32,000 nt of DNA from Candidatus Saccharimonadota bacterium (GCA_004563595.2 CP042461.1:390001-422000), one strand, 5' to 3'. Shown: positions 6,001-26,709, numbered from the stretch's first letter. Notes: generated by a model not told the origin, from the letters alone. Numbers and translations: made by a program.

Positions 6001-8744
6001 ACATAACATGACTCACAGATGCAACATCATATACGTATTATGTAAGATGTATCGACTGATCAAGTAATGAAAACACAACAGACTACACATTAAATTTTTC
6101 TGTAGCGAACACTCCAGACACAACGGCACCAATTCTTTCGAACTGAACTCCAAGTGGAGAACAAGCCTCAGGAACAACGAATGTGAACCTGACATTAGAT
6201 ACAGATGAAAATGCAACCTGTAAATACTCAACAGCAGTAAATACAACGTATGCATCAATGACAGATACCTTTACAACAACCTGAAATACAAGTCATACAA
6301 CCAACATAACATGATTAGCAGATGCAACATCATATACATATTATGTAAGATGTATAGATGGATCAAGTAATGCAACAACAACAGATTATACATTAAACTT
6401 TTCTGTAGCCGTAACTCCAGACACAACAGCTCCAGTACTTTCGAACGGAACACCAAGTGGAGAACAAGCCTCAGGAACAACAAATGTGAATCTCACATTA
6501 GACACAGACGAAAATGCAACCTGTAAATATTGAATAAATTCAAATACTACATACGCATGAATAGGGAATACATTTACAACAACCTGAAATACAACACATA
6601 GTACCAACATAACATGACTGATAGATGGAATATCATATACGTATTACGTAAGATGTATCGACTCAGTATCAAATGTAAATACAACAGACTACACACTGAA
6701 TTTCTCAGTAGCAAATACTCCAGACACAACAGCACCGATTCTTTCGAACGGAACCCCAAGTGGAGAACAAGCCTCAGGAACAAGTAACGTGAATCTGATA
6801 CTCGATACCGATGAAAATGCAACATGTAGATACTCTCCAAATGCAAATACATCATATTGAGCAATGTGAAACACATTTACAACGACATGAAATACAAACC
6901 ATACAACCAACATAACATGACTTACAGATGGAACATCACATACGTATTATATAAGATGTATGGATGGAAACTCTAATGCAACCACAACAGATTATACATT
7001 AAACTTCTCAGTAGCCAATACTCCAGATACATGAGCACCATTTTTAAGTAATGGACTTCCAAACTGAGAACAAGCCTCAGGAACAACAAATGTGAATCTG
7101 ACACTAGATACGAATGAAGCATCAACATGTAAATACTCAACAGTAGTAAATACAACGTATGCATCAATGACAGATACCTTTACAACGACATGAAATACAA
7201 GTCATTCTACAAATGTAACATGACTGACAGATGGAACATCATATACGTATTATGTAAGATGTATAGATGGATCAAATAATGAAACAACCACAGATTACAC
7301 ACTGAACTTTTCAGTAGCAAATGTAGTTGATACCACAGTACCAATACTCTCAAATGGACTTCCAAATGGAGAGCAATCAGCAGGAACAACAAACGTGAAT
7401 CTGACACTAGATACGAACGAAGCATCCACATGTAAATACTCAACCGTAGTAAATACAACATATGCATCAATGACAGATACATTTACAACAGGGACATGAG
7501 GACTGAATCATACAGCAAATGTAACATGACTTACAAACGGAATAAGTTATGCTTACTATGTAAGATGTATAGATGGATCAAGTAATGAAAACACAATAGA
7601 CTATGCTATGAACTTTTCAGTAGCCACTCTGATTGATGTAACAGCACCAGTATTAAGTAATGGACTTCCAAACGGAGAACAAACTGCTGGGACAACGAAT
7701 GTAAATCTGACACTTGATACGAATGAAATATCTACATGTAAATACTCAACAACAGTAAATACAACATATACATCAATGACAGACCTATTTACAACAGCAA
7801 CCTGAGGACTCAATCATACAGCAAATCTTACATGACTTACAGACAGTACAAGTTACACATATTATGTAAGATGTATGGATACCGATTCAAATGAAAATAC
7901 AAGTGACTACACGATTAACTTTTCAGTAGCCACAGCAAGTACAAGTGGATGATGAAGTTCAAGCTGAGGTTGAGGAGGCTGATGAGGAGGTTGAGGATGA
8001 TGAAGTTATATCCCAACCTGTAAAGATGAACAACTCACATGTAAACTGATTCCATGATCAACAACAACATACAAATGGTATGTACAAGAAGAAGTATCAT
8101 GTAAATATGGGAAACTATGATCAATATGTTCAGAGGAAGATGTAATTGATCTTAACAGTGGCTGAACATGAACAGGTACGACTACAGATACTACATGATG
8201 ATGAAGTGTGAAGAAATACCATTCAGAAATGACGATTCTTCAATTAATAGAAAAAAGAGTTGATAAAGTAATAGAACAAAAGGAGAAGGATAATGATGAG
8301 AAAGTAATAGAATACAGAAATACCTTTATCAAAGATGTAGAGAACTATATCTTAGCAAGACAAGCAAAACAAAATACCAGAGAACACAAAGTGAAAATAC
8401 TCGCAACGTTTAAACTCTTTGCAAAAGAATTAAGAAAAGAAAATAACGTTACAAGTTGATGAACAACAGAGACTTGAACAGCAAGTAGTGTAACGACACA
8501 CTTATCAGATAATGATATAGTGAACAAACTCTGAGCAAGACTTGATGCATTAATAGTAAAATACAAGAAGGAGAAAAGTATAAAGGTACTGTTTTTCAAA
8601 ACAAAGTTATTAAAGAATATAGACTCTTATATTCTCACTAAGAAAAACAAAGAGAAGGGAATTAACTACAGGATTAAAATGAAGATATTAAAAAGTAATA
8701 TTGAAAAAACTTATTTAATATTCTTGAAGAGTTTGAAATCTTAA
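3..8744 (+). CDS. Giant modular cell-surface/adhesin-like protein, 5'-truncated by the window edge (at least 2,913 aa with TGA=Gly)
   Basis: Frame 3 stays open from the window edge to TAA at 8742-8744 when TGA is read as Gly. I walked the frame by eye and met no TAA/TAG but many in-frame TGA. Domain order: He_PIG-like Ig domain ([43 protein letters not shown]), a Cys/Asp-rich [17 protein letters not shown] motif, a ~160-aa beta-rich domain, 3 Fn3/Ig-like repeats, and a ~370-aa unknown domain. The He_PIG + Cys motif + 160-aa domain then recur, followed by 1 repeat, a ~395-aa unknown domain, 9 repeats, a poly-Gly linker, a Cys-containing segment and a Lys-rich helical tail. A strong terminator follows. 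Confidence 0.85.
297..374 (+). other. Cys/Asp-rich Ca-binding-like motif, copy 1 ([26 protein letters not shown])
   Basis: Direct translation in the giant ORF frame. A second copy lies at 3168-3239. The CxDGxDNDGxGxxDCxDxxC pattern resembles the acidic Cys-rich repeats common in CPR and archaeal surface proteins. Confidence 0.6.
861..1769 (+). repeat. Three tandem 303-bp (101-aa) Fn3/Ig-like repeats inside the giant ORF
   Basis: Repeat starts ([12 protein letters not shown]) are at 861, 1164 and 1467, exactly 303 nt apart. Consensus: [77 protein letters not shown](K/R)CIDxxxNENTSDYxIxFSVA. Confidence 0.9.
3168..3239 (+). other. Cys/Asp-rich Ca-binding-like motif, copy 2 ([24 protein letters not shown])
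   Basis: Same motif as 297-374. It is again preceded by a He_PIG-like Ig domain (about 2886-3167: [46 protein letters not shown]). It is again followed by a homologous ~160-aa domain (FGDSAxNxVF...W(D/N)xVFxDxYTGYYNQG...NYNYQG). This shows a large module duplication within the ORF. Confidence 0.6.
3720..4022 (+). repeat. Single Fn3/Ig-like 101-aa repeat unit of the giant ORF
   Basis: [98 protein letters not shown]; same family as 861-1769 and 5208-7937. Confidence 0.85.
5208..7937 (+). repeat. Nine tandem Fn3/Ig-like repeats (eight of 303 bp, then one of 306 bp)
   Basis: Repeat-initial GAT/GAC codons are at 5208, 5511, 5814, 6117, 6420, 6723, 7026, 7329 and 7635. Each unit has two conserved Cys (xTC(K/R)YS and YYVRC) and a TGA-encoded Gly in ITGLTDG. 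The many minus-strand ORFs in the supplied track here are antisense artefacts of this array. Confidence 0.92.
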
Positions 8745-8799: not shown

Positions 8800-11052
8800 C
8801 TATGGAGTTATAGTTATATTATCAAGATGAAAAATTGCTTTACTTCACACTGAAAAATCTTTTTCTACTTCAATCTTGAATTCATATGTTCATGCTCATA
8901 ATACTGGACTCAAGTATGTTTGATATGCTGATAATCAAGATGTATCACCTCATTCTCACCAATGCTTAACTTGTACAGAGTCAATATAAAGTTTTGCTCT
9001 TCATAAGAAGAAACTTAATTTATAGTCAAAATTTAGAGTTTGACCTGCGGTTAGTGTTTGGTTAAATATGATATATGTTTTGTCACCTTCTATTAGAAGT
9101 GGATTTTTTATCGCGTAAACTCCATTTGAAGAATCAGTAACTCCTACTCTTGTCCAAGGTGTTTTTGCGGCTCAATCAAAAGTAAATAACTCATATGGGT
9201 TTGAAATTCAGTCTTCAAAATCTAAATCCCATCAGCATCATGCTCATCATCAAATACAACTAAAGTTAAAATTATCTAGAGAGAGATCTGCATGTGCACC
9301 GGAAGCCCACTCTAAATTTATTTTAAATTTGAATTCGTAGTCTCATGGTGGGAGAAGGGATGTAGTATACGCTTGATATGTCCCATTCCCCATTCCACTT
9401 CAGCCCCATTTCTCATACTTTGCTCAATTGATATAAAACTCTGCAGTTCATTGATTATAATCTAATTTATAATCAAAATTAAGTTTTTGAGATTGAGAGA
9501 GTGTTTTATTTAAAGTAATATAGGTAGTTTCTCACTGGTCAAGAGGAGGATTCTTAATCGCATATGTTCCATTTGAAGAATCAGTAACTCTTGTCCATGG
9601 TGTTGTTACATCTCAAGAAAATACAAATATATCAAATGGATTATCAGAAGAATCTTCAAAGTTTAAATCCCATCAGCAAGTTGCTCATCAATCAATACAT
9701 GTTTCATCTATCAATATATTGTCTAAAAATAAATTTGAATATGCTCCAGATGCCCAGTCTACGTACGTTTCAAATTTAAATTCATAATTTCATGCGGGTA
9801 GGAGAGTTGTAGTATATGTTTGGTATGTTCCATTTTGAATTCCACTTCATCACCATTTTTCATATTTGACTCAATTAATGTAAAAACTTGCAGTTCATTC
9901 ATTATAATCTAATTTATAATCGAATGTAAGATTAGCAGCTTTGTTGAGAACCATGTTGTATATGAAAGCAGTTGTTTCGCCCTCTCAAGCAGGGATGTTT
10001 CTTATAGCCTTTGATGCTCAGCTTCAGCTTCAATCTTCAATAATCCAGTCAGAATCTCATTCATAGGTATGTAAACAACTGTTACTTATAAGAGCTCAAG
10101 GTGAAAATCATTCAAATGTACCATCTTCATTTACACAGGTAAGTGGTAAGACATCATTTGATTTTAAAAACGGAGTATTACTTGAACAGTGTAATTGTTT
10201 TCTAAGCAATAGAGCATTTTCTTCTAAATAAAAAGGGTGAATATATCAATCTTGATATTGATCATATTTATTTATACTTTGAAAAATACCTGTTCCGTAA
10301 GATTGTTTTAGACCAGCTTCTAAATTATAGTAATCAACTTCATTTAATGGAGAACAATCCGTTCATTGATATAATAATCTAGGTGTAAAAGGTACTGTTT
10401 CTGAATTAAAGTCTCATTCAATGAAGCTTCAAGGAATAGTTTTCTTTGCAGCAATAACGAAATTGTTATTTTCAACTCAAACTTGAACTTCTTGATCTAC
10501 TCATCTGGTATTGAGTATTAAACTTGGGATAGAAATAATATGAGTTTCTCATCAAGTGCTGGTTCTTAAATATTTTGAGTTATAGTTTCATCAAATATAT
10601 GCAACAACATCAGTTGCTGCGTATATCTGATCTGTAAGGTGATGTTGGATATTCTGACTGAGCTGATTTTCTTCAAAGACTCATGCAATTTCATAATTTT
10701 TTCATGAAGTTGTGACTGAATATGATATTTCACTTCCGAATTTTATATCACTTAAGTCTCCAGCTACATTTATGAGAGACTGTATTCTTTCTCATATTAC
10801 TCATTGTTCCCAAATATCTACTCATGCATAACGAACAGTATTGGAATTTTGAGGTTTCGGATATTTTCCTGCTTGTACCTCATAGAGGTCAAGAGTTTTA
10901 TTTATATTTGAATAATTTGAGATTCTTACACTGTCTCTTGCTTGCCTACTATATCATTGAAATGATACAAAAGCTACTGTTCAAAGTATTGCAAGTATCG
11001 TTATAACAACTATAAGTTCTACAAGGGTAAATCATTTTTTTTGTAGGTTCAT
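8800..11052 (-). CDS. Large type IV pilin/pseudopilin-like protein (750 aa) with three C-terminal beta-sandwich (lectin/CBM/MAM-like) modules
   Basis: The N-terminus MNLQKKG|FTLVELIVVITILAILGTVAFVSFQGY is a class III (prepilin) signal with the cleavage-site Gly, Phe+1 and Glu+5. The Gly-1 codon is TGA. The span of 2253 nt is 751 codons from ATG (11052) to TAG (8800-8802), with no TAA/TAG in frame. Confidence 0.85.
8803..10077 (-). repeat. Three tandem ~133-147-aa modules within the pilin gene
   Basis: Modules span 9679-10077, 9238-9678 and 8803-9237. Shared blocks: CGWDL(N/D)FED...PWTRV(T)DSSNG(T/V)YAIKNP...LNFDYKLDYN(E/Q)GTAxFYINGxKYEKWGGSG...GxYEFKF...LDN. The nucleotide-level period is about 440-450 bp. 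Confidence 0.85.
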
Positions 11053-12092: not shown

Positions 12093-12650
12093 TTAAAAGT
12101 TTTTTATTGTAGTAGATGATTTTATTACTTCTTTGTGTCCTATTTTTTTTGTTACTTTATATCATTTTCTTTTTGTTAAAAAATCTGTATCAGATGAAAT
12201 ATTATACTTTAGGTGTCATCATAGGTTTCTCAGATATAAGCTTCATGTCTGAGAAACTATAATCGATATGCTTTTATTGACAACTCACGAGGCAGAATTA
12301 TTTGAAAAACTATAAAAAATAGGTCATCAATCAAGAATACTAATATCAATAGTATTATTTATACTTGGAAATTGGGTTTCAGATGTTTCTTTCACCTTGA
12401 GTACTCAAGTATATTTATTATTATCTTCAAAAATAATATTTTCTCAATTATCGAGTTGAGTATTGATATAGTTTTTTTCATTTAAAATTTTCTGTACTTG
12501 GTAATGACTTGTTATTGATTCTGATATGAGTGAATTGTTTCGAATAGTTTTTCCTATTTTTGAGCTTGTATTTATAAAAATAATACTGATTATAAGGCTC
12601 AGAAAAATTGACCAAATGAGTATAGATGCTTTTTGATGAGTATCTTGCAT
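12093..12650 (-). CDS. Hypothetical bitopic membrane protein (185 aa)
   Basis: ATG at 12650. One N-terminal hydrophobic helix (ASILIWSIFLSLIISIIFI). I walked the frame codon by codon through 8 TGA codons to TAA at 12093-12095. It lies divergent from the PilB-like ATPase, so a pilus-assembly accessory role is possible but unproven. Confidence 0.55.
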
Positions 12651-12711
12651 AAAGTAGAAACATATGATAATATTGAAAGGAGTATAATTTATAAGTCATA
12701 AATTACAAGTT

Positions 12712-14016
12712 ATGGTTGTTGTAAAGATAAAAGAGAGTGAAGAAAAACTCAAAGAAAAAATCTTAAAACATGAAAAGAAACACATATATTCTTCAGATAG
12801 ATTCAAAAAAATCGAAGAGAAGGTTTTGAGCGCCTTAAAAAAACAAAATACTGATGAAGCATTAAAAGATATTACCATTTGAGCACTTGTTTTATGAAGT
12901 TCAGATGTGCATTATGAGTGCTTTGATGATTATGTGGTAGTGAGGTTTAGAATAGATTGAGTCCTTGTTGATATATTCAAACTCACATTAAAAGAATATA
13001 AAATGGTTTTAGAGAGATTAAAATATTCATCAAACCTAAAACTAAATATATCTAATATTCCTCAAGATGGGAAATATGATATGCTTATTGATGAAAGAAA
13101 GATTGATGTGAGAGTTTCAACACTTCCAATTAAATATTGAGAAAATATAGTTTCTAGAATTTTAGATAATTCAAATGCTGTTGTTGACTATGAAAAATTG
13201 GGATTTTTTTGGACATCAAAGAGGATGATTGATAAAGCTACTTCAAAGAAGAACGGTATGATACTTGTAACTTGACCAACTGGTTCTGGTAAAACAACAA
13301 CTCTCTATACTATTCTATCGAAACTGAACACAAGGGAGAAAAAAATAATTACGCTAGAGGATCCGATTGAATATGAAGTGGATGGAATTATTCAATCAGA
13401 AATAAATGAAAAGGATGGATTTGACTTTAAAACCTGACTAAAAGCTCTTTTAAGACAAGATCCTGATATTATAATGGTATGAGAAATTAGAGATAAAGAT
13501 ACACTTGATACAGCTACTTCTGCAAGTTTAACATGACATTTGGTATTATCAACTCTCCATACGAAATCAGCTGCAGAAACGCTTGATAGAATTATAAATA
13601 TGTGATTAAGACCATATGTTTTAGCTTCGGCACTTGATACGGTTATTGCTCAAAGATTAGTGAGAAAAATTTGTCCACATTGTAAGGTAGAAAAAGAAAA
13701 AACTCAACAAGAGATGGCTCTTATCAAAGCTATCATGGGAGAAATTTGAATTCATCATTTGCCAGCCAAATTTGTAAAATTATATAAATGAGAATGATGC
13801 GCTCAATGTAATCATAGTTGATACAAATGAAGAATTTGAATTTTTGAGATACTTTCTTTGACAGATAATATGAGAAATATGATCAGAGAAGGAGCAAATG
13901 CAGAAGATATTCTTAAAGAAGCAAGACGAGGAGATTTTATTGCAATGAAAGAAGATGGTGTACTAAAAGCTATTAAAGGTTTTACCACGATTGAAGAAAT
14001 TTTAAGAGTAATATAA
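12712..14016 (+). CDS. pilB: Type II/IV secretion / type IV pilus assembly ATPase (PilB/GspE family), 434 aa
   Basis: Motifs: Walker [15 protein letters not shown] (its Gly TGA at 13273-13275), LEDPIEYE, Walker B DPDIIMVGEIRD, His box [11 protein letters not shown], tetracysteine CPHC...CAQC, and GYKGRIGIFE. There are 15 in-frame TGA codons; those falling in the listed motifs occupy conserved Gly positions. It is shorter than classical PilB because the N-terminal region is short. Confidence 0.93.
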
Positions 14017-18540: not shown

Positions 18541-19152
18541 ATGGAAGAAGCAATACGTGGAAAATTTCAAGAACATGCACATTATGGTTTTGTAATACCA
18601 GATGATAGAGAAGAATTTTGAGGGGACTTCTTTGTAAATAAAGATAATATGAAAGATGCAAAAACATGAGATAGAGTTGAGGCAAGACCTATGAAATATG
18701 CTAAATGAAAAAAACCAGAAGCTAAAATTTTAAGAGTACTTACAAACCTACAACCAAAAGTTGCCAAAACAGAGATCGTAGAATGAGTATATTCATGAGG
18801 TGATGGAAATTTTTGATTCATTGATATAGAGTGAGGAGAAAAATGATATTTTGTTTATTGAAAAAAGAAAAATTGAGCAAGAGATGGTGACAGAGTAAAA
18901 GCTGAACTTGTTGACTTTAAATGAAAAAAAGAAGCAATTGTAGTTGAGATTTTAGAATCAGACGAAGAATTGTTGGTATGAAAATATAAAGATAATGATC
19001 AATTTGGTTTTGTTTTACCAGATGATAAAAGTGGTGATATTTTCATTGCTGGTTCAAGAAAATGATGAGCAAGTACATGAGATAGAGTTGAAGTTCAAAT
19101 AATTAAAAGATGAGGAAAAAATCCTGAAGGAGTGGTAAGGAGAATAATGTAA
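18541..19152 (+). CDS. Stand-alone protein of three cold-shock/OB-fold units, paralogous to the RNase R N-terminal region (203 aa)
   Basis: Each of the three units contains xxFGF(V/I)xPDD...D(I/F)F(I/V)...GD(R)VE. Units 2-3 are collinear with residues ~15-150 of the RNase R at 24751 (for example GNFGFIDIEGGEKGYFVYG versus [19 protein letters not shown]). 16 in-frame TGA in 203 codons. It ends at TAA 19150-19152. Confidence 0.75.
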
Positions 19153-19276
19153 GGGGGGATTAATAAATATTGGCTTTTATTTAGAAAAAGAGTATAATGT
19201 TAGATGAATCTAAACAAAGTTTCAAACTCAATCACTTTCTGGAACTTTTAATTAGGTTCAGGATAATAGAGGAAAT

Positions 19277-19681
19277 ATGTACATGCAGACTACTTCGTAT
19301 AGACCTCAAATCAAGTCTACTTTTAAACCCTCTAATTTGGAATTGCCATCCGATTTTCATGTGGATGTAAAAGGAGAGAAATTTCCAAAAGAAGAACATT
19401 TATTTCTTGGAGTCGTATTGGAATATTTAAAAGAAATGGGATATGACTGGTCTCAAAGAATTAATTTCGATGATATAGCATATTCTGGTACTCATAGAAG
19501 CTCGACTATATGTGAACAATATTTTCAATTTATACTTTCAAATAATGAATTAAATTATTGTCCCGATATTGCTGCTACGAGAGATGGTTTTATCACTCAA
19601 GTGCGTATTGAAAGAATTGGAGAGTATTATGTTACTCAGAAATTCATTGATGGAGTGGAACAGTATGTATCTAAAAAATAA
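19277..19681 (+). CDS. Hypothetical protein (134 aa), island ORF A; no in-frame TGA
   Basis: Intact ORF even in the standard code. GAGG lies 4 nt upstream of the ATG, the stop is TAA, and a terminator follows. No family recognised. Confidence 0.6.
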   Translation: MYMQTTSYRPQIKSTFKPSNLELPSDFHVDVKGEKFPKEEHLFLGVVLEYLKEMGYDWSQRINFDDIAYSGTHRSSTICEQYFQFILSNNELNYCPDIAATRDGFITQVRIERIGEYYVTQKFIDGVEQYVSKK

Positions 19682-19715
19682 CCTTTATTATTCATAAAAA
19701 AAGGGGCGCAAAAAA

Positions 19716-19744
19716 AGAACCTAAGAAATTTGGGTTCTTTTTTA
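19716..19744 (+). terminator. Rho-independent terminator after island ORF A
   Basis: Stem AGAACC / GGTTCT with an 11-nt loop, followed by a T-run. Confidence 0.6.
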
Positions 19745-20114
19745 AAGGATCTCTTACATGACTCTTACTTATAATTAATAACCTAGGGAATACATGTTAT
19801 TTATATTGTTTCTATGAAAAAAATAAACATATTGTCTTTTCTATATTGCTCTACTACATGAAATATATACGAACGTAAATTATGTGACTCATACAAAGTA
19901 CCTTAGATAGAGAAGTGGAAAATTTAAAATAGAAAGAATTTAGGGGGATTTATACTTTTTTTCCTTTATTATAGTTTTTGTAGTATGAAAGTGATTCTTT
20001 TAAAAGTTGCGTTTTGTGAAGAATTCTACCAGTATTTTTTTGACAAAATAAAAAAAATAATTAGTATTTTAATACGCTCGTTTTTCTAGATTTCAAAAAA
20101 AAAGGCATTAATAT

Positions 20115-20564
20115 ATGACCACAATTGAAGATCTTATTGATATTCAGACTCGATTTATAAGGCTAGTAAAATTCCAAAGAAAAAAAAATCTTCCAGAGGT
20201 TCTTTATGGAGAAATTCCTTCTTATGAAGAAACTTTAAAAGAAGTATTGCAATCTTGTCAAGAAGCATTATTAGATGTATGTTTTGATAATGATGCTGAA
20301 ATAATAAGGTTATTCTCAGATCTTCATTCTTTATTGGAAGGGGAAAAGAGAAAACATTTTTGTGAAGATTTAGATGACTTGGTTCAGAATATAAAAACTC
20401 TGGCATTTAAGAGGGAAAATAAAGAACGGATTCAGATAAACTTGCATGTGCTAGCTCAAGTCCATAGATCGACCTATGATCAAGAAATAGATACTTACTT
20501 TTTTGAAAGATATAGATCAACTTTTCCTATCGTATTAGTTGTAGCTAGAGAGGAAAGTGAATAA
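20115..20564 (+). CDS. Hypothetical, apparently all-helical protein (149 aa), island ORF B; no in-frame TGA
   Basis: Intact standard-code ORF with a TAA stop and a strong terminator downstream. No family recognised. Confidence 0.6.
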   Translation: MTTIEDLIDIQTRFIRLVKFQRKKNLPEVLYGEIPSYEETLKEVLQSCQEALLDVCFDNDAEIIRLFSDLHSLLEGEKRKHFCEDLDDLVQNIKTLAFKRENKERIQINLHVLAQVHRSTYDQEIDTYFFERYRSTFPIVLVVAREESE

Positions 20565-20620
20565 CTAGCTTCATTGCAAAAAAAATACTATTAAAAGGGC
20601 CTATAGGAGGCTGTCCCAAA

Positions 20621-20649
20621 AAATCCAAACAGAAATGTTTGGATTTTTT
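20621..20649 (+). terminator. Rho-independent terminator after island ORF B
   Basis: Perfect 10-bp stem AATCCAAACA / TGTTTGGATT with a GAAA loop and a T7 tail. Confidence 0.8.
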
Positions 20650-21433
20650 TCGTAGAAAATATAAACCTGATTCCTAAATTATTCTAAAAAAATGAAAGAA
20701 ACTTCCTATTCAAGCTTGAAAATTCATGATTTTCTTTAAATTATGAGCTGAACTTATCAAATCCCACTCAAAAAACAAAAAGAATTAAAGTTTCAACCTT
20801 ATGAGTGAAAAATTCCTGTGTTATATGGCTTAAATTAAAAATATAGAGTAACTGAAGGGCTAGAATTTTCTTTTTCCTGTATTTACCACTATTTAAGATA
20901 TATATAAGGTTTCCTCCCTAATCTTTGTACTATCTGAGAGAAGTAAAGAAGTTAATGCATCATATAATAAAAAATAAAAATTCAGTAGATTACTAAAAGT
21001 AAAAGTAACAATAGAACGCCTACAACAATTATTTTTTTTAGAAAATACTTAATGCTAATATTCTTTTTGTATAACTTAAAAGCATAGTAAGCAATAATTA
21101 TAGTATAAAGAAGTAGAGTAATAATAACAAAACCCGAATTAGTAAACAGATATAGAGGTGTAAGAGGTTCGGGACATACTAATCAAGAATTTACAGAGTG
21201 ATTTGGGGATGATATCATAACATGTACCTTAAGTAATAATAATATAATACTATGGATTTAATATAAAAAACAAAAATGTTATACCTAAAATAGATACCTA
21301 AGAAAAATAAAAACCCTATTGTTAAATTCTCAACTAAAACTAAATAAGAGATATTTACCAGAGACTGATGACTCTGTATTATATGTGAGGAGAGTAGGAG
21401 GATGGAAGTATTTTGAGAATTGATAAATATTTG

Positions 21434-21460
21434 GAAAAATAAAAGAGCCCATGAAGGGCT
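21434..21460 (-). terminator. Rho-independent terminator after island ORF C
   Basis: On the minus strand: GAGCCC TTCAT GGGCTC followed by TTTTATTTTT. Confidence 0.7.
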
Positions 21461-21480
21461 CCATACATACAATATAACTA

Positions 21481-21957
21481 TTAGTAAGGCACATTATGTT
21501 TTATTTTTTCTATTGTGCTATTTAAATCATACGCTGAATGTCTCTCGATTATTGATATATGCATCAATGGTTTCTCCTTACCTAAATATTTAACTAAAAC
21601 ACGACGATTCATATCAGCTTCAATCACGCATTCAGTTCCATGTAATGGAAAAGTGAGTCTTGCAAAATTACGGATATGATTTATCTCAGGCATGTGAAAA
21701 AAAATACCTTGCGTAATTTCTTCTGGCTTTATCTCTACCTTATAATTTTCGGAATATGATAATATGAGTTCCCTCATATCTGATAATAACCCTCTAAATC
21801 TATCTTTGTAAGCAAAGTTTCCTTGTTCTATATTAGTAATTTCTAGAGTAATATCCTTAGTTTTAGAGTTGAAAAAATCCCAAAGTGTATTTTTATCAAT
21901 ACCTGAAATCATACTAGTATGAGCCATAATATTTCCATCATTTGGTTGATACTTCAA
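21481..21957 (-). CDS. Hypothetical protein (158 aa from TTG 21957, or 148 aa from ATG 21927), island ORF C; no in-frame TGA
   Basis: Intact standard-code ORF with a TAA stop and a terminator 20 nt downstream. ATG at 21927 (MAHTSMISGIDKN...) is the more plausible start. Confidence 0.6.
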   Translation of the reverse strand: MKYQPNDGNIMAHTSMISGIDKNTLWDFFNSKTKDITLEITNIEQGNFAYKDRFRGLLSDMRELILSYSENYKVEIKPEEITQGIFFHMPEINHIRNFARLTFPLHGTECVIEADMNRRVLVKYLGKEKPLMHISIIERHSAYDLNSTIEKIKHNVPY

Positions 21958-22290
21958 TTATAAGTTAGTACTAAGTACTCCATAATTAATAGTAATTTAA
22001 TAATACGCATGAAATACAATAAGTCAAAGAAATCCCTAATAAAAATAAAACATGAATTTAACTCAGAAAATATATTTTTACGATTTCATAATCTTAATCA
22101 ATGAGACTAAATTATAACAAAATTTATATATATTTACTACGCACTTGCAATTAACTTAAAATATATATTTTCATATGCGTAAAAAAAAGAATAAACATCA
22201 ACTTTAGGTCCATAGGACTATTAGCAATATTGTTTATTCTTTAATTTTCTTTTAAGCTATTTGTTCATTTTCCCTTATAAAAGGGAATAA

Positions 22291-22375
22291 TGGTACCTAG
22301 AAAGGGAATCGAACCCTCACTCCCGAAGGAAGGGGATTTTGAGTCCCCCGTGTCTACCAATTCCACCATCTAGGC
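22291..22375 (-). tRNA. tRNA-Leu(CAA), type II with long variable arm, CCA encoded
   Basis: Minus-strand sequence: GCCTAGA TG GTGG AATTGGTAGA CAC G GGGGA CTCAAAA TCCCC TTCCTTCGGGAGT GAGGG TTCGATT CCCTT TCTAGGT A CCA. It folds into a cloverleaf with a 7-bp acceptor stem (G1-U72 wobble). The anticodon loop CU-CAA-AA gives anticodon CAA. It has a UUCG-capped variable arm, a GTTCGAWT T-loop and discriminator A. Confidence 0.9.
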
Positions 22376-22426
22376 ATATATGGTGGAGCCCCGTAAAGGG
22401 CCCCATAGAAAATTGAGTGTACTGAG

Positions 22427-22453
22427 ATTATATGCAAAAGTATTTTTTTGCAA
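22427..22453 (-). promoter_or_regulatory. Sigma70-like promoter upstream of tRNA-Leu
   Basis: Minus strand reads TTGCAA (22453-22448), a 15-nt spacer, then TATAAT (22432-22427). This lies about 50 nt upstream of the tRNA 5' end. A short GC-rich hairpin (GCCC CGTAAA GGGC) lies in the leader. Confidence 0.5.
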
Positions 22454-22462
22454 ATTTTACTT

Positions 22463-22497
22463 AAAAAATAAAACCACCCAGGGGATTGGGTGGTTTT
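22463..22497 (-). terminator. Rho-independent terminator directly after island ORF D
   Basis: Minus strand: AAACCACCC AATCCCCT GGGTGGTTT followed by TATTTTTT. The hairpin begins 18 nt after the TGA at 22515-22517. Confidence 0.8.
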
Positions 22498-22514
22498 GAA
22501 TATGCGACCTTATC

Positions 22515-22793
22515 TCAATATCGACTACATTTTATGTCTAATACAAGATTGCTAGTTAGATCATACATACCTTCAATTTTCCTAGTAGTATATGATTTAA
22601 CCAGGCTTTCAGCCTTCTCTATATCGACTGCTAATATAGTTGTCTCATCGAGTTCTTCATTAATACGTTTTAACTTATTTTCTGGATCATCAAGACTATA
22701 ACTTGTGGAACAGCTATAATATATAAGATCATCCTGATTATCATCACAACTTATTAAAAGTAGAGATGAGATTAAAATAAAGAATATTCTCAT
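22515..22793 (-). CDS. Small putative lipoprotein (92 aa), island ORF D; ends at TGA
   Basis: MRIFFILISSLLLIS|C is a signal peptide plus lipobox-like LLISC. There is no internal TGA. The terminal codon is TGA (22515-22517). If it is read as Gly, the ORF runs 18 more codons through the terminator hairpin to TAA at 22461-22463. Confidence 0.6.
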   Translation of the reverse strand: MRIFFILISSLLLISCDDNQDDLIYYSCSTSYSLDDPENKLKRINEELDETTILAVDIEKAESLVKSYTTRKIEGMYDLTSNLVLDIKCSRY

Positions 22794-22818
22794 ATTTTTT
22801 CTCTTTTATTTTTGTTTT

Positions 22819-23256
22819 TTAGCTCTGAACAAGGTTTATTTTTTTTAAAATATCGGTCCATTTTATTACAAGTTTATCAAAAATTATAGGATCGTCGTCA
22901 GAGATTATACTGTTTGTATCTTTTTGATCCAAATATACATCATTTATCTTGATTTCAATTTTTCTAAATTTTCGGTGATAGAGAATCGTTATACTTATAT
23001 AACCTTCTGGCAAACAACGATTCATTATAGAATCAAAATCATTTATTTTGAAGCTAAAATGGTATTGATCTATAGAGCTTATCTCAAATGCATAGCATTT
23101 TGGATGATCGAGCATAATATATTTGTTGTCTTCATCTGCTATATTTGAAGGTTCTCCGTTACTTCCTAACTCAATATCTAATTTTTTGTAATCATCAATA
23201 GCTATTGTAATGCTTTCACGGAACTTTAATAATAGAGCTTTGTCTACTTCATCCAT
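22819..23256 (-). CDS. Hypothetical protein (145 aa), island ORF E; no in-frame TGA
   Basis: Intact standard-code ORF with AGGAAG about 10 nt upstream of the ATG and a TAA stop. Only 25 nt separate it from ORF D, so the two probably form a small operon. Confidence 0.6.
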   Translation of the reverse strand: MDEVDKALLLKFRESITIAIDDYKKLDIELGSNGEPSNIADEDNKYIMLDHPKCYAFEISSIDQYHFSFKINDFDSIMNRCLPEGYISITILYHRKFRKIEIKINDVYLDQKDTNSIISDDDPIIFDKLVIKWTDILKKINLVQS

Positions 23257-23384
23257 AATTTTACTTCTTCCTAGTGGAACTTATTAAAACAGCATGTTTC
23301 AATTTCAAGTAATCAACTAAAGTATATTACTTATAATGTTTTCGTTTCTAATGTCAAATTTTGTAGGCTGGTTTTTTTGTAATC

Positions 23385-23418
23385 AAAAAACCACTCGATG
23401 ATGACATCGTGTGGTTTT
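23385..23418 (-). terminator. Rho-independent terminator after island ORF F
   Basis: Hairpin CCACTCGAT / ATCGTGTGG (one mismatch), flanked by an A6 run and a T5 run, so it can work on either strand. Confidence 0.55.
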
Positions 23419-23440
23419 TAAGTATTGCTTATAACGACAA

Positions 23441-23965
23441 CTAATTGCATAATAAACCATCAACCTGTTTTGCTTTTATTTTATGATTTTTATTTTTGTT
23501 TTTTTCGAGAAAATTAGCATCATCCATGAAAAAATTTTCAGCTTCTAATGCATTTATTTGTCCACTTCTAGTGTCAAATAGATAATTTCTTAACTCATAA
23601 CCAAGAGCTTCGCAGCTAGGTTTATCACGAATTATTTTTGGAAAAAGAAAATCAAGAGCTTTTTTATCTCGTGTTCTCCCAGTCCAAGGTACGCGGGTTT
23701 TTCTTGCAGGTATAATCTTAAAATCAGATATCAAGCCAGCATCATTTTTTATATATCTTACTCTCCATTTATTTGGATTATCTTTGCGGATAGCTATTCG
23801 TTTCCCGCGCTCATATAAAAATGTTACTAGATCCTGAAAATTAGAATCATGAGAACGGTACCGCGAGTTTTTTATTTCGTAAAATACATCTGGATGATTC
23901 AAATATATTTGCGCTAATGTTTGTGAGTGTATATCATCAAAACTAACAATTTCTCGAAAGTCCAT
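23441..23965 (-). CDS. Hypothetical basic protein (174 aa), island ORF F; no in-frame TGA
   Basis: Intact standard-code ORF with GAGGA about 9 nt upstream of the ATG and a TAG stop. It uses CGN Arg codons and CpG (for example ACCGCGAG, CCCGCGC, TACGCGGG on the plus strand), which I rarely saw in flanking genes. No family recognised. Confidence 0.6.
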   Translation of the reverse strand: MDFREIVSFDDIHSQTLAQIYLNHPDVFYEIKNSRYRSHDSNFQDLVTFLYERGKRIAIRKDNPNKWRVRYIKNDAGLISDFKIIPARKTRVPWTGRTRDKKALDFLFPKIIRDKPSCEALGYELRNYLFDTRSGQINALEAENFFMDDANFLEKNKNKNHKIKAKQVDGLLCN

Positions 23966-24045
23966 ATCCTACATCCTCTGTTTAGAAAAACAAACTATGT
24001 AATATCTTGTATACTCAGAATTCACTTGATGTCAAAAAATAAGGA

Positions 24046-24079
24046 TCAAAAAAACTGAGGGACTACATACCTCCTCAGT
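24046..24079 (-). terminator. Rho-independent terminator after island ORF G
   Basis: Stem CTGAGG / CCTCAG with a 12-nt loop. A-run on one side and T-run on the other. Confidence 0.65.
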
Positions 24080-24108
24080 TTTTAAATACCTAATCTAAGA
24101 ATACTCTG

Positions 24109-24549
24109 TTACCAGAATTTCTTCAATTTAAGTATTGATTTTTCAATATCACTATACAATTCTGGAGAGAGAAAAGTTTTTTTCTCATCCCAAGACATAA
24201 GGTGACCATTGATTCTTACATTTACTTTTTTTGTGCAATAATTATAGGAGAGTCTTATAAATGAATTCGATCCTTGAATTGATGTATAAGGAAAAACAAA
24301 AATGAATCTAAAGTAACATCTTTTACCAAAAAGATAGTTTGGAGCTATTATTGTGTATGAATCTGTTTTATTTTGAAACGCTTCAGATATATCTGTTGTA
24401 AGATATTTACTGATTCCTACTTGCATAACATTTTTAGGAATTGAAGCAATTTCATTTAGCTCAGGAATATTTTGTTTTACTTGTGTTGTTTTACCTTCCA
24501 GTTTGTTATTAACTGGTACTTCAGGGAGGAGTAATTCTCTATATGTCAT
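24109..24549 (-). CDS. Hypothetical protein (146 aa), island ORF G; no in-frame TGA
   Basis: Intact standard-code ORF with GGAGA 7 nt upstream of the ATG and a TAA stop, followed by a terminator. Confidence 0.6.
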   Translation of the reverse strand: MTYRELLLPEVPVNNKLEGKTTQVKQNIPELNEIASIPKNVMQVGISKYLTTDISEAFQNKTDSYTIIAPNYLFGKRCYFRFIFVFPYTSIQGSNSFIRLSYNYCTKKVNVRINGHLMSWDEKKTFLSPELYSDIEKSILKLKKFW

Positions 24550-24609
24550 TTTTTTCTCCAGCCTATTTTTTTACAATACCATTAACGCAAAATGCATTAA
24601 TTCCTAGTC

Positions 24610-24638
24610 TTGTAAAAATATTGCACAACGTTTATAAT
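24610..24638 (+). promoter_or_regulatory. Sigma70-like promoter upstream of rnr
   Basis: TTGTAA (24610-24615), a 17-nt spacer, then TATAAT (24633-24638), about 110 nt upstream of the rnr ATG. Confidence 0.5.
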
Positions 24639-24750
24639 ATTTTATTAAATAATGTCAATTTTTTTTGTAAAAGAAAAAATTATAAACTATTTTCTTGGAA
24701 AATATAAGTAAGCAAGTACAATAAAAGCTAATTATTAATAGAAGAAAAAA

Positions 24751-26709
24751 ATGATAGAAAAAACCAAAAATAAAGAGCTGTGAGAAAATGAAATTATCTG
24801 AATATATGCGCAATGAAAATGAGATTTTTGATTTGTTGATGTGGAATGACGTGAGAAAGGTTATTTTGTTTTTTGAAGAAATTCTTTGAATGCAATGACT
24901 TGAGATAAAGTTTTTGCCACTGTAAAAGTATTTAAATGAAAGGAAGAAGCAGAAATAAAAAAAGTTCTGACAAGAAGAAAAGAACCAATTGTATGAGTTT
25001 TTAATGACTCATGAAGATTTGGTTTTGTTGCACCAAATGACCCATCATTTAAAAAAGATATATTTATTCCATGATCAAAAGCTCTAAAAGCAAAAGACGG
25101 TGAGATAGTAGCTGTAGAAGTGCTGAGCTGGGAAGGGAGGTCACCTGAATGAAAGGTTGTAAAAGTTTTATGAAAACCATGAGATAAATGAGTTGATGTG
25201 CTTGGGCTTGCTGTTGAATACGGAGCAAGAATGTGATTTGGATGAGCTATTAGGGAGGAACTTGAAAAAATACAGAAACCAGTTTCAATTAAAGATATCA
25301 ATAAAAGGAAAGATTTAAGAAAATTATTCACTATTACAATTGATTGAGAAGACTCAAAGGATCTTGATGATGCTGTGAGTGTTGAAAAAACTTCAAAAGG
25401 GAATTATGTACTCTCTGTTCATATTGCTGATGTTGCTCATTATGTAAAAGAAGGTCATGCAATTGATAAAGAAGCTTTGAGGAGATGAACTTCTATTTAC
25501 CTTGTAGATCAAGTGATTCCTATGCTTCCTAAAGAGCTTTCAAATGGTTTATGTAGCCTGAATCCAAATGAAGATAAGCTGACTCTTACATGTGAGATAG
25601 AGATTAATTCTGCATGACATATTGTAAATACGAATGTTTATGAATCTGTGATCAAGAGTGACTTTAGAATGACTTATAAAGAGGTTGATGAAATAATAGA
25701 ATCTAAGCAAGAGGTTGAAGAATGAAATACGCTCCTTTTCGGATGAATTATCTCAAAACAGCTCATTTCAATGCTTCAGGATTCTGAGAAATTAAGAGAT
25801 ATTCTTGCTCTTCATAAAAAATCACTTGGGGTATTGGAGTTTGATTTTCCTGAAACAAAAATAATTGTTGATAAAGATGGAAATCCAACAGAATTCAAAA
25901 AATATGAGAGATATAATTCAAATAAAATCATTGAAGAATTTATGGTCATGGCAAACGAAGCCATTTCAAGGAAATTTTCAGATATTCCATTCTTGTACAG
26001 AGTCCATCCAAAACCAAGCGAAGAGGATGTAGAAAAACTACAAAAAAACCTGGCAATTTTTTCATATACTCTTCCAAAAAAAGATAAAGTAAGCTCAAAA
26101 GATTTTGCTGTGATTCTGAATGAAATCAAGAATGATGCACGTGAAAAACTGCTCAGTAAAATGGTGTTAAGAAGTCTTACAAAAGCGATATATTCAGATG
26201 AAAGAGAATGACACTTTGGTCTCGCTCTAGATTATTATAGTCACTTTACTTCACCTATTAGAAGATATCCTGACCTACAAATACATAGAATTATAAAAGA
26301 AAAGCTTCATAAAAGGCTAGATAAGGGAAGAATAGGTCATTATAAACTTATTTTACCAAAAGTTGCGAATAAAACATCAGATTTAGAAGTAAAAGCTGAG
26401 AAACTTTCTTATAAAATTCAAGATCTGATGGCTGTAAAATATATGAAAAACAAGGTTGGGGAACAATTTGATGCTCATATCTCATGAGCAATCCAGCATT
26501 GAGTTTTTGTAGAGCTTGATAATACAATCGAATGATTTGTAGAGCTTAACGAGAAGTTCTGACCTTCAAATTTTGTGTTTGATGCTGATATGATGGAAAT
26601 GAAAAGCTCAATCTCACAAGTTAAATATTCTATATGAGATTCAGTAAAAGTTGAGCTTATAAAAGTTGACCCAAAATTACTCCGTCTAGATTTTGCATTG
26701 GTTCTCTAA
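24751..26709 (+). CDS. rnr: Ribonuclease R (3'-5' exoribonuclease, RNB family), 652 aa
   Basis: Two N-terminal CSD/OB units, then an RNB domain: [85 protein letters not shown]-terminal S1 domain follows ([20 protein letters not shown]). The frame-1 ORF opens after TAG 24739-24741, starts at ATG 24751 and stops at TAA 26707-26709. About 19 TGA fall in the first ~195 codons. Confidence 0.92.

What the first reader, a model, noticed from the sequence alone, without database searches (positions are those of the whole stretch)
19153..24750. A 5.6-kb island of seven orphan genes with no in-frame TGA, embedded in a heavily TGA-recoded genome
Flanking genes use TGA-Gly often by my manual counts: 15 in 434 codons in pilB, 16 in 203 in the OB protein at 18541, and about 19 in the first ~195 codons of rnr. 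Between them lie seven ORFs of 92-174 aa (19277-19681, 20115-20564, 21481-21957, 22515-22793, 22819-23256, 23441-23965, 24109-24549). Together they total about 998 codons and have no internal TGA. All their Gly codons are GGN, and they are the only long ORFs the standard-code track recovers intact. At host-like frequencies, tens of TGA codons would be expected. The transition is sharp on both sides, falling between 19152 and 19277 and between 24549 and 24751. I recognise no family for any of the seven proteins and no integrase or transposase. Possible readings are: (a) recent acquisition from a standard-code donor; (b) a remnant or cargo of a phage or plasmid that stays code-neutral to function across code boundaries; (c) most speculatively, genes selected to be translatable in a standard-code cell, which would matter for an epibiotic or predatory lineage. 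Their function is unknown, and defence, immunity or effector roles are all open.
Basis: partly seen in the sequence, partly recalled or inferred. Interest (0 to 1): 0.9.

Follow-up and report, generated by a model that had tools for sequence, protein, structure and literature searches.

The report
Standard-code gene cassettes in recoded genome
In a bacterium that reads the stop codon TGA as glycine, a 5.6-kb stretch around a leucine tRNA gene holds seven small genes that never use TGA and carry ribosome-binding sites the rest of the genome lacks, which marks them as probable recent imports from a standard-code gene pool.

Summary
The window comes from the closed genome of Candidatus Gracilibacteria bacterium 28_42_T64 (code 25). 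Thirteen native genes use TGA for 45-89% of their Gly codons. The seven ORFs between 19153 and 24750 have 30 GGN and no in-frame TGA (P about 2e-12), although TGA is common in their other two frames.

Sister genomes have OB gene, a short variable stretch, tRNA-Leu, then rnr, and none of the seven genes.

A second signature agrees. All seven genes have Shine-Dalgarno-type leaders and none of 12 native genes does (complete separation). CpG and CGN-Arg usage also differ. One gene (22793-22515) ends in TGA 18 nt before an intrinsic terminator, so TGA looks like its original stop.

One protein (23441-23965) has distant homologues on conjugative Rhizobiales plasmids. Two others found no believable relative in billion-scale searches. 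The remaining four were checked only against smaller collections.

Best reading (0.7): recent horizontal acquisition of self-contained cassettes from a standard-code, SD-using mobile gene pool into a tRNA-flanking hot spot. Function is unknown. This is a moderately interesting new variant of a known kind.

The parts
18541..19152 (+). Native left flank. OB-fold protein of 203 aa with three OB_RNB domains, a paralogue of the rnr N-terminus. 16 TGA among 28 Gly codons.
   Evidence: The ortholog sits at the same position in L001 and L002.
19277..19681 (+). I1: 134-aa protein with no relative in the searches run. 0 TGA, 7 GGN. GAGGA Shine-Dalgarno motif 4 nt before the ATG. Promoter-like site at 19170-19198.
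   Evidence: No hit in Pfam, PHROGs, PADLOC, NCBIfam or IMG/VR.
19715..19746 (+). Intrinsic terminator of I1.
20115..20564 (+). I2: 149-aa protein with no relative in the searches run. 0 TGA. Weak SD pairing (-3.2 kcal/mol). Promoter-like site at 20040-20067. Terminator at 20620-20654.
21481..21927 (-). I3: 148-aa orphan. 0 TGA. Promoter-like site at 22027-22000. Terminator at 21463-21435.
22291..22375 (-). Native tRNA-Leu(CAA). 98% identical to the copy at the same position in L001 and L002.
22376..22458 (-). Native tRNA leader. It has a promoter-like TTTGCA-16-TATAAT (22454-22427) and a GC hairpin (about 22384-22403). It is conserved with the distant relative L005. It marks the inner boundary of the right block.
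22461..22793 (-). I4: predicted lipoprotein (MRIFFILISSLLLISC...). 92 aa to the TGA at 22517-22515. Read as code 25 it runs 18 codons further to the TAA at 22461-22463.
22462..22497 (-). Intrinsic terminator (11-bp stem plus T-run) that starts 18 nt after the TGA of I4 and lies inside the code-25 read-through tail.
22819..23256 (-). I5: 145-aa acidic protein with no relative in the searches run. 0 TGA. AGGAAG motif upstream. Only 25 bp from I4, so the two are probably one transcription unit.
23441..23965 (-). I6: 174 aa. 0 TGA. GAGGA Shine-Dalgarno motif. Terminator at 23418-23380. Distant homologue (28% identity over 148 aa) of a 152-aa hypothetical protein on conjugative Rhizobiales plasmids.
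24109..24549 (-). I7: 146-aa orphan. 0 TGA. GGAG Shine-Dalgarno motif 6 nt before the ATG. Terminator at 24082-24044.
24751..26709 (+). Native right flank: rnr (RNase R). 29 TGA among 46 Gly codons. In relatives it starts about 130 bp from the tRNA-Leu gene.

Best explanation
The stretch between the OB-fold gene and rnr is a flexible hot spot around a conserved tRNA-Leu(CAA) gene. In this species it has been filled, on both sides of the tRNA, with six self-contained transcription units holding seven small genes. These came from a gene pool that reads TGA as stop and starts translation at Shine-Dalgarno sites. The most likely source is mobile elements (plasmids, or phages compatible with the standard code) of standard-code bacteria, or elements shared with them.

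The genes work in the recoded cell without any adaptation, because a gene that evolved under the standard code cannot contain in-frame TGA. The only cost is read-through of TGA stops, and the lipoprotein gene I4 gains 18 residues this way. The genes have not been resident long enough for synonymous GGA-to-TGA drift or for loss of their ribosome-binding sites.

Shown: frame-specific absence of TGA; SD leaders; deviant CpG and Arg codon use; absence from the syntenic site in relatives; a TGA stop directly before a terminator; plasmid homologues of I6.

Inferred: direction and recency of transfer, the vector, expression, and function. My guess for function is accessory or conflict roles typical of mobile-element cargo, such as a surface lipoprotein and a plasmid accessory protein.
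For: 1. In-frame TGA is 0 of 988 codons and 0 of 30 Gly codons, against a native fraction of 0.59 of Gly codons (P 2e-12). Off-frame TGA is abundant: 12 and 66.
2. Anti-SD pairing of the 20-nt leaders is -2.9 to -6.8 kcal/mol for all 7 island genes and +1.8 to -2.4 for all 12 native genes. Separation is complete (Mann-Whitney p 2e-4). P(all 7) is about 1e-4 against random 20-mers or 20-mers before any ATG. The island's gaps are not SD-rich.
3. Native genes of the relatives also lack SD motifs: 0 of 18 in L001, 0 of 15 in L002 and 1 of 17 in L006.
4. Synteny in relatives is radA, OB, 1.4-1.7 kb variable stretch, tRNA-Leu, about 130 bp, rnr in L001 and L002. In L006 and L005 the tRNA also abuts rnr. 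No tblastn trace of I1-I7 was found there.
5. The TGA of I4 lies 18 nt before an 11-bp-stem terminator. The other island terminators start 20-58 nt after the stop codon.
6. The same hot spot in L001 and L002 carries an unrelated 97-101-aa ORF with a perfect AAGGAG motif (-8.7 kcal/mol) and no internal TGA. The only TGA in the L001 copy aligns with the TAA stop of the L002 copy.
7. CGN makes up 38% of Arg codons against 13% in native genes (p 2e-4). CpG observed/expected is 0.66 against 0.42. Dinucleotide distance is 147, against 43-119 for native 5.6-kb windows.
8. I6 is homologous to a protein found only on conjugative Rhizobiales plasmids in PLSDB: 45 records, pairwise E 4e-14, database E 1e-4.
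9. The literature describes TGA-free, 'code-11-compatible' phages predicted to infect Gracilibacteria, whose TGA stops are backed by nearby TAA or TAG (PMC10746230).
Against: - No integrase, transposase, att repeat or duplicated tRNA fragment marks an insertion.
- No donor was identified. I3 and I7 found no believable relative among billions of proteins. I1, I2, I4 and I5 could not be searched at that scale.
- GC and GC3 equal the host's. Either the donor pool is equally AT-rich or the genes have been resident long enough to ameliorate, which sits uneasily with zero TGA.
- A conserved native gene can be TGA-free. The OB orthologs in L001 and L002 have 1 of 27 and 0 of 27 TGA in genomes that use TGA for about 42% of Gly. 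TGA absence alone is therefore not proof of foreign origin.
- Only 32 kb of the 1.34-Mb genome could be examined.
- Liu et al. found that all integrated prophages in these lineages are TGA-dense.
Confidence: 0.7

Rival explanations
1. The cassettes are cargo of a code-neutral, broad-host-range element (phage, plasmid or ICE) that replicates both in the Gracilibacterium and in standard-code bacteria. On this reading, the absence of TGA and the SD sites are kept by selection for function in both cell types, not merely inherited from a donor.
For: - Liu et al. 2023 (PMC10746230) report that 34 of 38 predicted Gracilibacteria phages lack in-frame TGA, and that some are targeted by CRISPR spacers of standard-code bacteria.
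- The TGA of I4 is backed by a TAA 18 codons later.
- A cassette of the same style recurs at the same hot spot in the sister species.
- The I6 family is plasmid-borne in Proteobacteria.
Against: - There are no replication, transfer, structural or integration genes in the interval.
- There is no similarity to any phage or IMG/VR contig.
- Once chromosomal, the genes no longer need to be code-neutral.
- Simple inheritance from a standard-code donor explains the same data with fewer assumptions.
Confidence: 0.2
2. The seven genes are native, fast-evolving, strongly expressed small genes. TGA is counter-selected in them (slow or error-prone decoding), and SD sites are used to boost translation.
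For: - A clearly native gene can be TGA-free. The OB orthologs in L001 and L002 have 1 of 27 and 0 of 27 TGA.
- TGA use varies widely between native genes in L006, for example 4 of 41 Gly codons in one long gene against 41 of 49 in another.
- GC and GC3 are host-like.
- Each unit has its own terminator.
Against: - In this genome all 13 native genes, including OB, use TGA for at least 45% of Gly codons.
- No native gene in four Gracilibacteria loci has an SD leader, apart from one doubtful ORF.
- The seven genes have no counterpart at the syntenic site of relatives whose rnr is 65% identical.
- CpG and CGN-Arg usage deviate.
- A TGA sits where the stop codon of I4 should be.
- I6 has plasmid homologues.
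Confidence: 0.08
3. The interval is an assembly chimera: DNA of a standard-code organism was joined into the Gracilibacteria contig.
For: The transitions in TGA use are sharp on both sides. The origin is metagenomic.
Against: - The same proteins occur on three separately recorded assemblies with contigs of 417 kb, 419 kb and 1.34 Mb.
- The genome was closed and curated read by read (PMC6851277).
- A native, syntenic tRNA-Leu gene with its conserved leader lies in the middle of the interval.
- GC content is that of the host.
Confidence: 0.02
4. The genes are kept free of TGA, with SD sites, so that they can be translated inside a standard-code host or prey cell after transfer of DNA or RNA from the epibiont.
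For: Only the two translation signatures themselves and the presumed epibiotic lifestyle of the lineage (PMC6851277).
Against: - No secretion or transfer apparatus is linked to the locus.
- No precedent was found in the literature searched.
- I4 has a lipoprotein signal for the producer's own membrane.
- The signatures are the default state of any gene from a standard-code donor.
Confidence: 0.02

Closest known systems
Code-11-compatible (TGA-free) phages predicted to infect Gracilibacteria and Absconditabacteria (Liu et al. 2023, mBio, PMC10746230)
   Same: Genes associated with a code-25 host that have no in-frame TGA. Where TGA is the stop, another stop follows soon after.
   Different: Those are free phage genomes with phage hallmark genes. 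The same paper found that every integrated prophage was TGA-dense. Here the TGA-free genes are chromosomal, with no phage genes and no sequence similarity to phage collections.
tRNA-linked genomic islands and islets, and phage 'morons' (autonomous promoter-gene-terminator cassettes)
   Same: Strain-specific genes next to a tRNA gene. Deviant sequence signature. Each unit has its own terminator. The encoded proteins are small and of unknown function.
   Different: There is no integrase, no att duplication and no surrounding prophage. The cassettes lie on both the 5' and 3' sides of the tRNA gene.
ORFan genes of bacterial genomes attributed to phage or mobile-element origin (own knowledge: Daubin and Ochman 2004)
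   Same: Short genes without detectable homologues, clustered together and absent from close relatives.
   Different: Here the recipient's altered genetic code and its lack of SD use give two independent, built-in markers of foreign origin. Ordinary genomes do not offer these.
152-aa hypothetical protein of conjugative Rhizobiales plasmids (e.g. WP_041699486.1 on pTiS4, between the TraH family protein gene and a ProQ/FinO gene)
   Same: I6 aligns end to end with it (28% identity, conserved TL.Q..PD.F, LG and E.FF motifs).
   Different: I6 is chromosomal, in a CPR bacterium, and 22 aa longer at the C-terminus. Its N-terminal ExoX-C-like motif is degenerate. The function of the family is unknown.

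Membership tests
tRNA-targeting integrative island or prophage remnant | Lies next to a tRNA gene | tested here: met
   tRNA-Leu(CAA) at 22291-22375 lies between the two blocks.
tRNA-targeting integrative island or prophage remnant | Integrase or recombinase gene, or a remnant of one | tested here: not met
   No hit in Pfam, PHROGs or NCBIfam. The gaps are full of stops in all six frames.
tRNA-targeting integrative island or prophage remnant | Flanking direct repeats that duplicate the tRNA 3' end | tested here: not met
   No second copy of the tRNA 3' 20-mer at up to 3 mismatches. Only chance-level short matches were found.
tRNA-targeting integrative island or prophage remnant | Absent from the same site in relatives, with a deviant sequence signature | tested here: met
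Code-11-compatible phages of Gracilibacteria (Liu et al. 2023) | No in-frame TGA in genes | tested here: met
   0 of 988 codons.
Code-11-compatible phages of Gracilibacteria (Liu et al. 2023) | TGA stops followed closely by TAA or TAG | tested here: met
   One case only. The TGA of I4 is followed by TAA 18 codons later. The other six genes end in TAA or TAG.
Code-11-compatible phages of Gracilibacteria (Liu et al. 2023) | Phage hallmark genes or similarity to phage genomes | tested here: not met
Code-11-compatible phages of Gracilibacteria (Liu et al. 2023) | CRISPR spacer link to the host | not testable with these tools
   The genome is reported to lack CRISPR-Cas (PMC6851277).
Moron-like autonomous cassette | Own transcription terminator | tested here: met
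   Terminators follow I1, I2, I3, I5-I4, I6 and I7.
Moron-like autonomous cassette | Own promoter | tested here: inconclusive
   Good -35/-10 matches lie before I1, I2, I3 and I5, but the number of sites equals the shuffle expectation (42 against 39.7).
Moron-like autonomous cassette | Embedded in a prophage | tested here: not met
   No phage genes are present.
Rhizobiales conjugative-plasmid 152-aa protein family (I6 only) | End-to-end sequence homology | tested here: met
   28% identity over 148 aa, pairwise E 4e-14, database E 1e-4, with conserved columns along the whole length.
Native code-25 Gracilibacteria gene | TGA used for a large share of Gly codons | tested here: not met
   0 of 30, against 0.45-0.89 in 13 native genes.
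Native code-25 Gracilibacteria gene | Leader without Shine-Dalgarno pairing | tested here: not met
   All seven leaders pair at -2.9 to -6.8 kcal/mol. The 12 native leaders are all at or above -2.4.
Native code-25 Gracilibacteria gene | Ortholog at the syntenic site in relatives | tested here: not met

The most novel reading that the evidence does not exclude
The cassettes belong to a code-neutral mobile gene pool that moves between Gracilibacteria and the standard-code bacteria they live on. The tRNA-Leu flank serves as a landing pad without an integrase. In code-25 genomes, the TGA share of Gly codons together with leader SD strength would then form a built-in clock and tracer for such cross-code gene flow. 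That would make the age and source of orphan genes directly measurable.
Probability: 0.2. Interest if true: 0.75.

Novelty: new variant of a known kind. Interest (0 to 1): 0.5.

Why it matters
A changed genetic code is often described as a barrier to gene exchange. This locus suggests the barrier works in one direction only. Genes from the standard code enter a TGA-recoded chromosome and stay readable, at worst with a short C-terminal extension.

Two independent translation signals, no in-frame TGA and Shine-Dalgarno leaders, label the imports without any need for homologues. This gives a practical way to find and roughly date foreign and orphan genes in Gracilibacteria and Absconditabacteria genomes.

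The locus also qualifies the published finding that integrated elements in these lineages are always TGA-dense.

Tried and rejected
**Searches that returned nothing**
- A concatenated 1006-aa query returned nothing, not even self hits, probably because of the candidate cap. That search was wasted.
- The look-up of encoding contigs does not index this genome, so the contig could not be extended for genome-wide statistics.
- Pfam, PHROGs, PADLOC and NCBIfam gave nothing above noise for any of the seven proteins.
- tblastn against 50,697 phage records gave no hit.
- IMG/VR scans with I1, I2, I5, I7, the I6 family alignment and two exact 24-mers gave no hit.
- A PDB sequence search gave no hit.

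**Results I rejected**
- The only hit of I7 in 1.84 billion representatives is a 1212-aa repeat protein whose score comes from eight repeated weak matches. I rejected it as spurious.
- AlphaFold2 without an alignment gave pLDDT 44 (I6) and 35 (I1). I did not run a fold search on such models.
- Paralogy among the seven proteins is rejected. The best pair, I3-I7, has z = 3.0 among 21 comparisons.
- No att sites or duplicated tRNA fragments were found.
- The inverted repeat at the two outer borders (19161-19181 and 24720-24740, 81% over 21 nt) is one of 124 such pairs in AT-rich DNA. I treated it as chance.
- No pseudogene remnants were visible in the 433-, 916- and 363-bp gaps.
- Preference for T over A at fourfold sites is not robust once the 2906-aa giant gene is removed from the native set.

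Full report
**Origin of the window.** Exact look-up of the seven proteins places the window in the closed 1,343,103-bp genome of Candidatus Gracilibacteria bacterium 28_42_T64, locus tags A9Q91_01970 to 02005. The same proteins also occur on contigs of 418,566 and 416,895 bp from other assemblies. The genome paper (Sieber et al. 2019, PMC6851277) describes read-level curation and use of code 25. It does not mention this locus.

**The observation.** Under code 25 the window resolves into 13 large native genes plus the seven ORFs in question.
- Every native gene uses TGA for 45-89% of its Gly codons: 391 TGA in 8025 codons, or 0.59 of Gly pooled.
- The seven ORFs (988 sense codons) have 30 GGN and no TGA.
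- The probability of 0 of 30 is 2.4e-12 at the pooled fraction and 1.6e-8 at the lowest native fraction.
- The avoidance is specific to the reading frame. The same ORFs hold 12 and 66 TGA triplets in the other two frames, and the island's non-coding DNA holds TGA at 1.5% of positions. This is the pattern expected when TGA acts as a stop codon.
- Of 17 standard-code ORFs of at least 90 aa in the window, only these seven match whole genes.
- The ORFs show normal coding periodicity (GC1 > GC2 > GC3, purine-rich first position), and ORFs of 92-174 aa are far too long to arise by chance in 30% GC DNA.
- GC and GC3 are the same as in the flanks.
- Gly content is low, 3.0% against 8.3%, so the Gly-adjusted expectation is about 18 TGA rather than 'tens'.
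- Coding density is 55%, against 87-98% in the flanks.

A tRNA-Leu(CAA) gene lies at 22291-22375 on the minus strand, inside the interval. I fetched the rnr neighbourhood of related Gracilibacteria.
- In L001 and L002 (rnr 65% identical, radA 71%, pilB 74-77%) the order is pilB, dUTPase-like gene, transporter, HtrA-like protease, radA, OB gene, 1.4-1.7 kb variable stretch, tRNA-Leu(CAA), about 130 bp, rnr.
- In L006 and L005 the tRNA also abuts rnr.
- In the window, I4-I7 (2.3 kb) lie between the tRNA leader and rnr, where relatives have nothing.
- I1-I3 (3.1 kb) lie between OB and the tRNA 3' end, where relatives carry other, unrelated ORFs.
- Only the flanks, the tRNA (98% identical) and its leader (promoter-like site and GC hairpin, conserved even with L005) are shared.
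- tblastn of I1-I7 against all fetched loci finds nothing.

The 'island' is therefore two blocks of species-specific DNA on either side of a native tRNA gene.

**A second, independent signature.** The leaders of the seven genes carry Shine-Dalgarno-type motifs: GAGGA before I1, AGGAAG before I5, GAGGA before I6 and GGAG before I7, with weaker purine runs before I2-I4.
- Pairing of the 20 nt before each start with a generic bacterial anti-SD sequence gives -2.9 to -6.8 kcal/mol for all seven.
- It gives +1.8 to -2.4 kcal/mol for all 12 native genes, so separation is complete (U = 84, p = 2e-4).
- Against random 20-mers, or 20-mers before any ATG, the chance that all seven reach -2.9 is about 1e-4.
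- The island's gaps are not SD-rich, so the signal is tied to start codons.
- Native genes of the relatives also lack SD motifs: 0 of 18, 0 of 15 and 1 of 17.

The cassettes therefore carry an initiation signal that this lineage does not otherwise use.

**Further signs of foreign origin.**
- CGN codons make up 38% of Arg against 13% in native genes (p = 2e-4).
- CpG observed/expected is 0.66 against 0.42.
- The dinucleotide distance of the interval to the rest of the window is 147, above every native 5.6-kb window (43-119). Part of this reflects TGA use itself.

**TGA as a stop codon.** I4 begins with a lipoprotein-type signal (MRIFFILISSLLLISC). Under the standard code it ends at the TGA at 22517-22515. 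An intrinsic terminator with an 11-bp stem and a T-run starts 18 nt later (22497-22462). Read as code 25, the gene runs through the hairpin to a TAA inside the T-run and adds 18 residues. The other island units have terminators that start 20-58 nt after their TAA or TAG. The TGA therefore sits where a stop codon belongs.

The sister species give a parallel case. At the same hot spot, L001 and L002 carry an unrelated 97-101-aa ORF with a perfect AAGGAG motif (-8.7 kcal/mol) and no internal TGA. The single TGA in the L001 copy aligns exactly with the TAA stop of the L002 copy.

**What the proteins are.**
- No Pfam, PHROGs, PADLOC or NCBIfam family matches above noise.
- The seven are not paralogues of one another.
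- I3 and I6 found only themselves among 5.8 billion proteins in the word-seeded search.
- I7 found only itself and one spurious repeat protein in a full HMMER scan of 1.84 billion representatives.
They have no hit in the phage or plasmid collections, and the three of them that were scanned (I1, I2, I5) have none in IMG/VR.
- tblastn against plasmids did find relatives of I6: a 152-aa hypothetical protein present in 45 records, all conjugative plasmids of Rhizobiales (Agrobacterium Ti plasmids, Sinorhizobium, Methylobacterium).
- The match is 28% identity over 148 aa, pairwise E 4e-14 and database E 1e-4, with conserved columns along the whole length.
- On pTiS4 this gene lies between the TraH family protein gene and a ProQ/FinO gene. 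On the Methylobacterium plasmid it lies next to an HTH/ImmA pair and an integrase.
- The function of the family is unknown. Its N-terminus resembles the ExoX-like C-terminal motif below threshold.
- Single-sequence structure models were unusable.

**Interpretation.** A gene that evolved where TGA is a stop cannot contain in-frame TGA, so no special 'code-neutral' selection is needed to explain the pattern. Transfer from the standard code into code 25 is permissive. The seven genes combine:
- no in-frame TGA;
- SD leaders;
- deviant CpG and Arg codon use;
- a TGA stop before a terminator;
- absence from relatives;
- one link to a plasmid family.

The best explanation is therefore recent horizontal acquisition of autonomous cassettes from a standard-code, SD-using mobile gene pool into a tRNA-flanking hot spot (confidence 0.7).

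The literature supplies a plausible vector. Liu et al. 2023 (PMC10746230) report that most phages predicted to infect Gracilibacteria lack in-frame TGA and back up their TGA stops. They also report that every integrated prophage was TGA-dense. TGA-free chromosomal genes are thus a modest addition to that picture.

**Caveats.**
- There is no integrase, att site or tRNA duplication, so the insertion mechanism is unknown.
- GC and GC3 match the host, so the donor pool must be equally AT-rich.
- TGA absence alone is not proof of foreign origin. The native OB gene is TGA-free in L001 and L002 (1 of 27 and 0 of 27) although those genomes use TGA for about 42% of Gly codons. This keeps alive a minor rival: native, highly expressed genes that avoid TGA.
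- Only 32 kb of the genome could be examined, and attempts to fetch more failed.
- Expression and function are untested.

**Verdict.** This is a new variant of a known kind: a tRNA-linked islet of horizontally acquired orphan genes. What makes it notable is that the recipient's altered code and its lack of SD use give built-in markers of import. Interest is moderate (0.5).

Noticed in passing
window 18541-19152; L001 7576-8187; L002 8308-8919: The OB-fold gene (three OB_RNB domains, a paralogue of the first ~140 residues of rnr) uses TGA for 16 of 28 Gly codons here. Its orthologs in two sister genomes (63% identical) use TGA for 1 of 27 and 0 of 27, in genomes where TGA makes up about 42% of Gly codons. 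A conserved native gene can therefore be TGA-free. The cause is unknown.
   Followed up: partly
L001 8319-8624; L002 9047-9340: Sister species carry, at the same OB-to-tRNA-Leu hot spot, an unrelated 97-101-aa ORF with a perfect AAGGAG ribosome-binding site and no internal TGA. The only TGA in the L001 copy aligns with the TAA stop of the L002 copy.
   Followed up: partly
window 22376-22458: The leader of tRNA-Leu(CAA) holds a promoter-like TTTGCA-16-TATAAT and a GC-rich hairpin (GGAGCCCCGTAAAGGGCCCC on the + strand). It is conserved with the distant relative L005 but not with L001 or L002.
   Followed up: partly
window 20952-21218 (-): Inside the 916-bp gap lies an 88-aa ORF with two hydrophobic helices and two in-frame TGA. 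It could be a small native membrane protein or just an AT-rich chance ORF.
   Followed up: no
window 24-8744 (+) and 8800-11052 (-): A 2906-aa repeat-rich surface protein (126 TGA, with a 13-residue Gly run inside a Gly/Ser-rich stretch) and a 750-aa pilin-like protein converge on one shared bidirectional terminator with a 14-19-bp stem.
   Followed up: no
window 12093-12878 (-) against 12712-14016 (+): A 261-aa ORF on the minus strand overlaps the 5' end of pilB by about 167 bp. One of the two start assignments is probably wrong.
   Followed up: no
L090 5968-6426 (pTiS4), L091 4001-4462 (Methylobacterium pVL1_1): The plasmid relatives of I6 form a small family seen only on conjugative Rhizobiales plasmids in PLSDB. 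On Ti plasmids the gene sits between the TraH family protein gene and a ProQ/FinO gene. It is annotated as hypothetical.
   Followed up: partly
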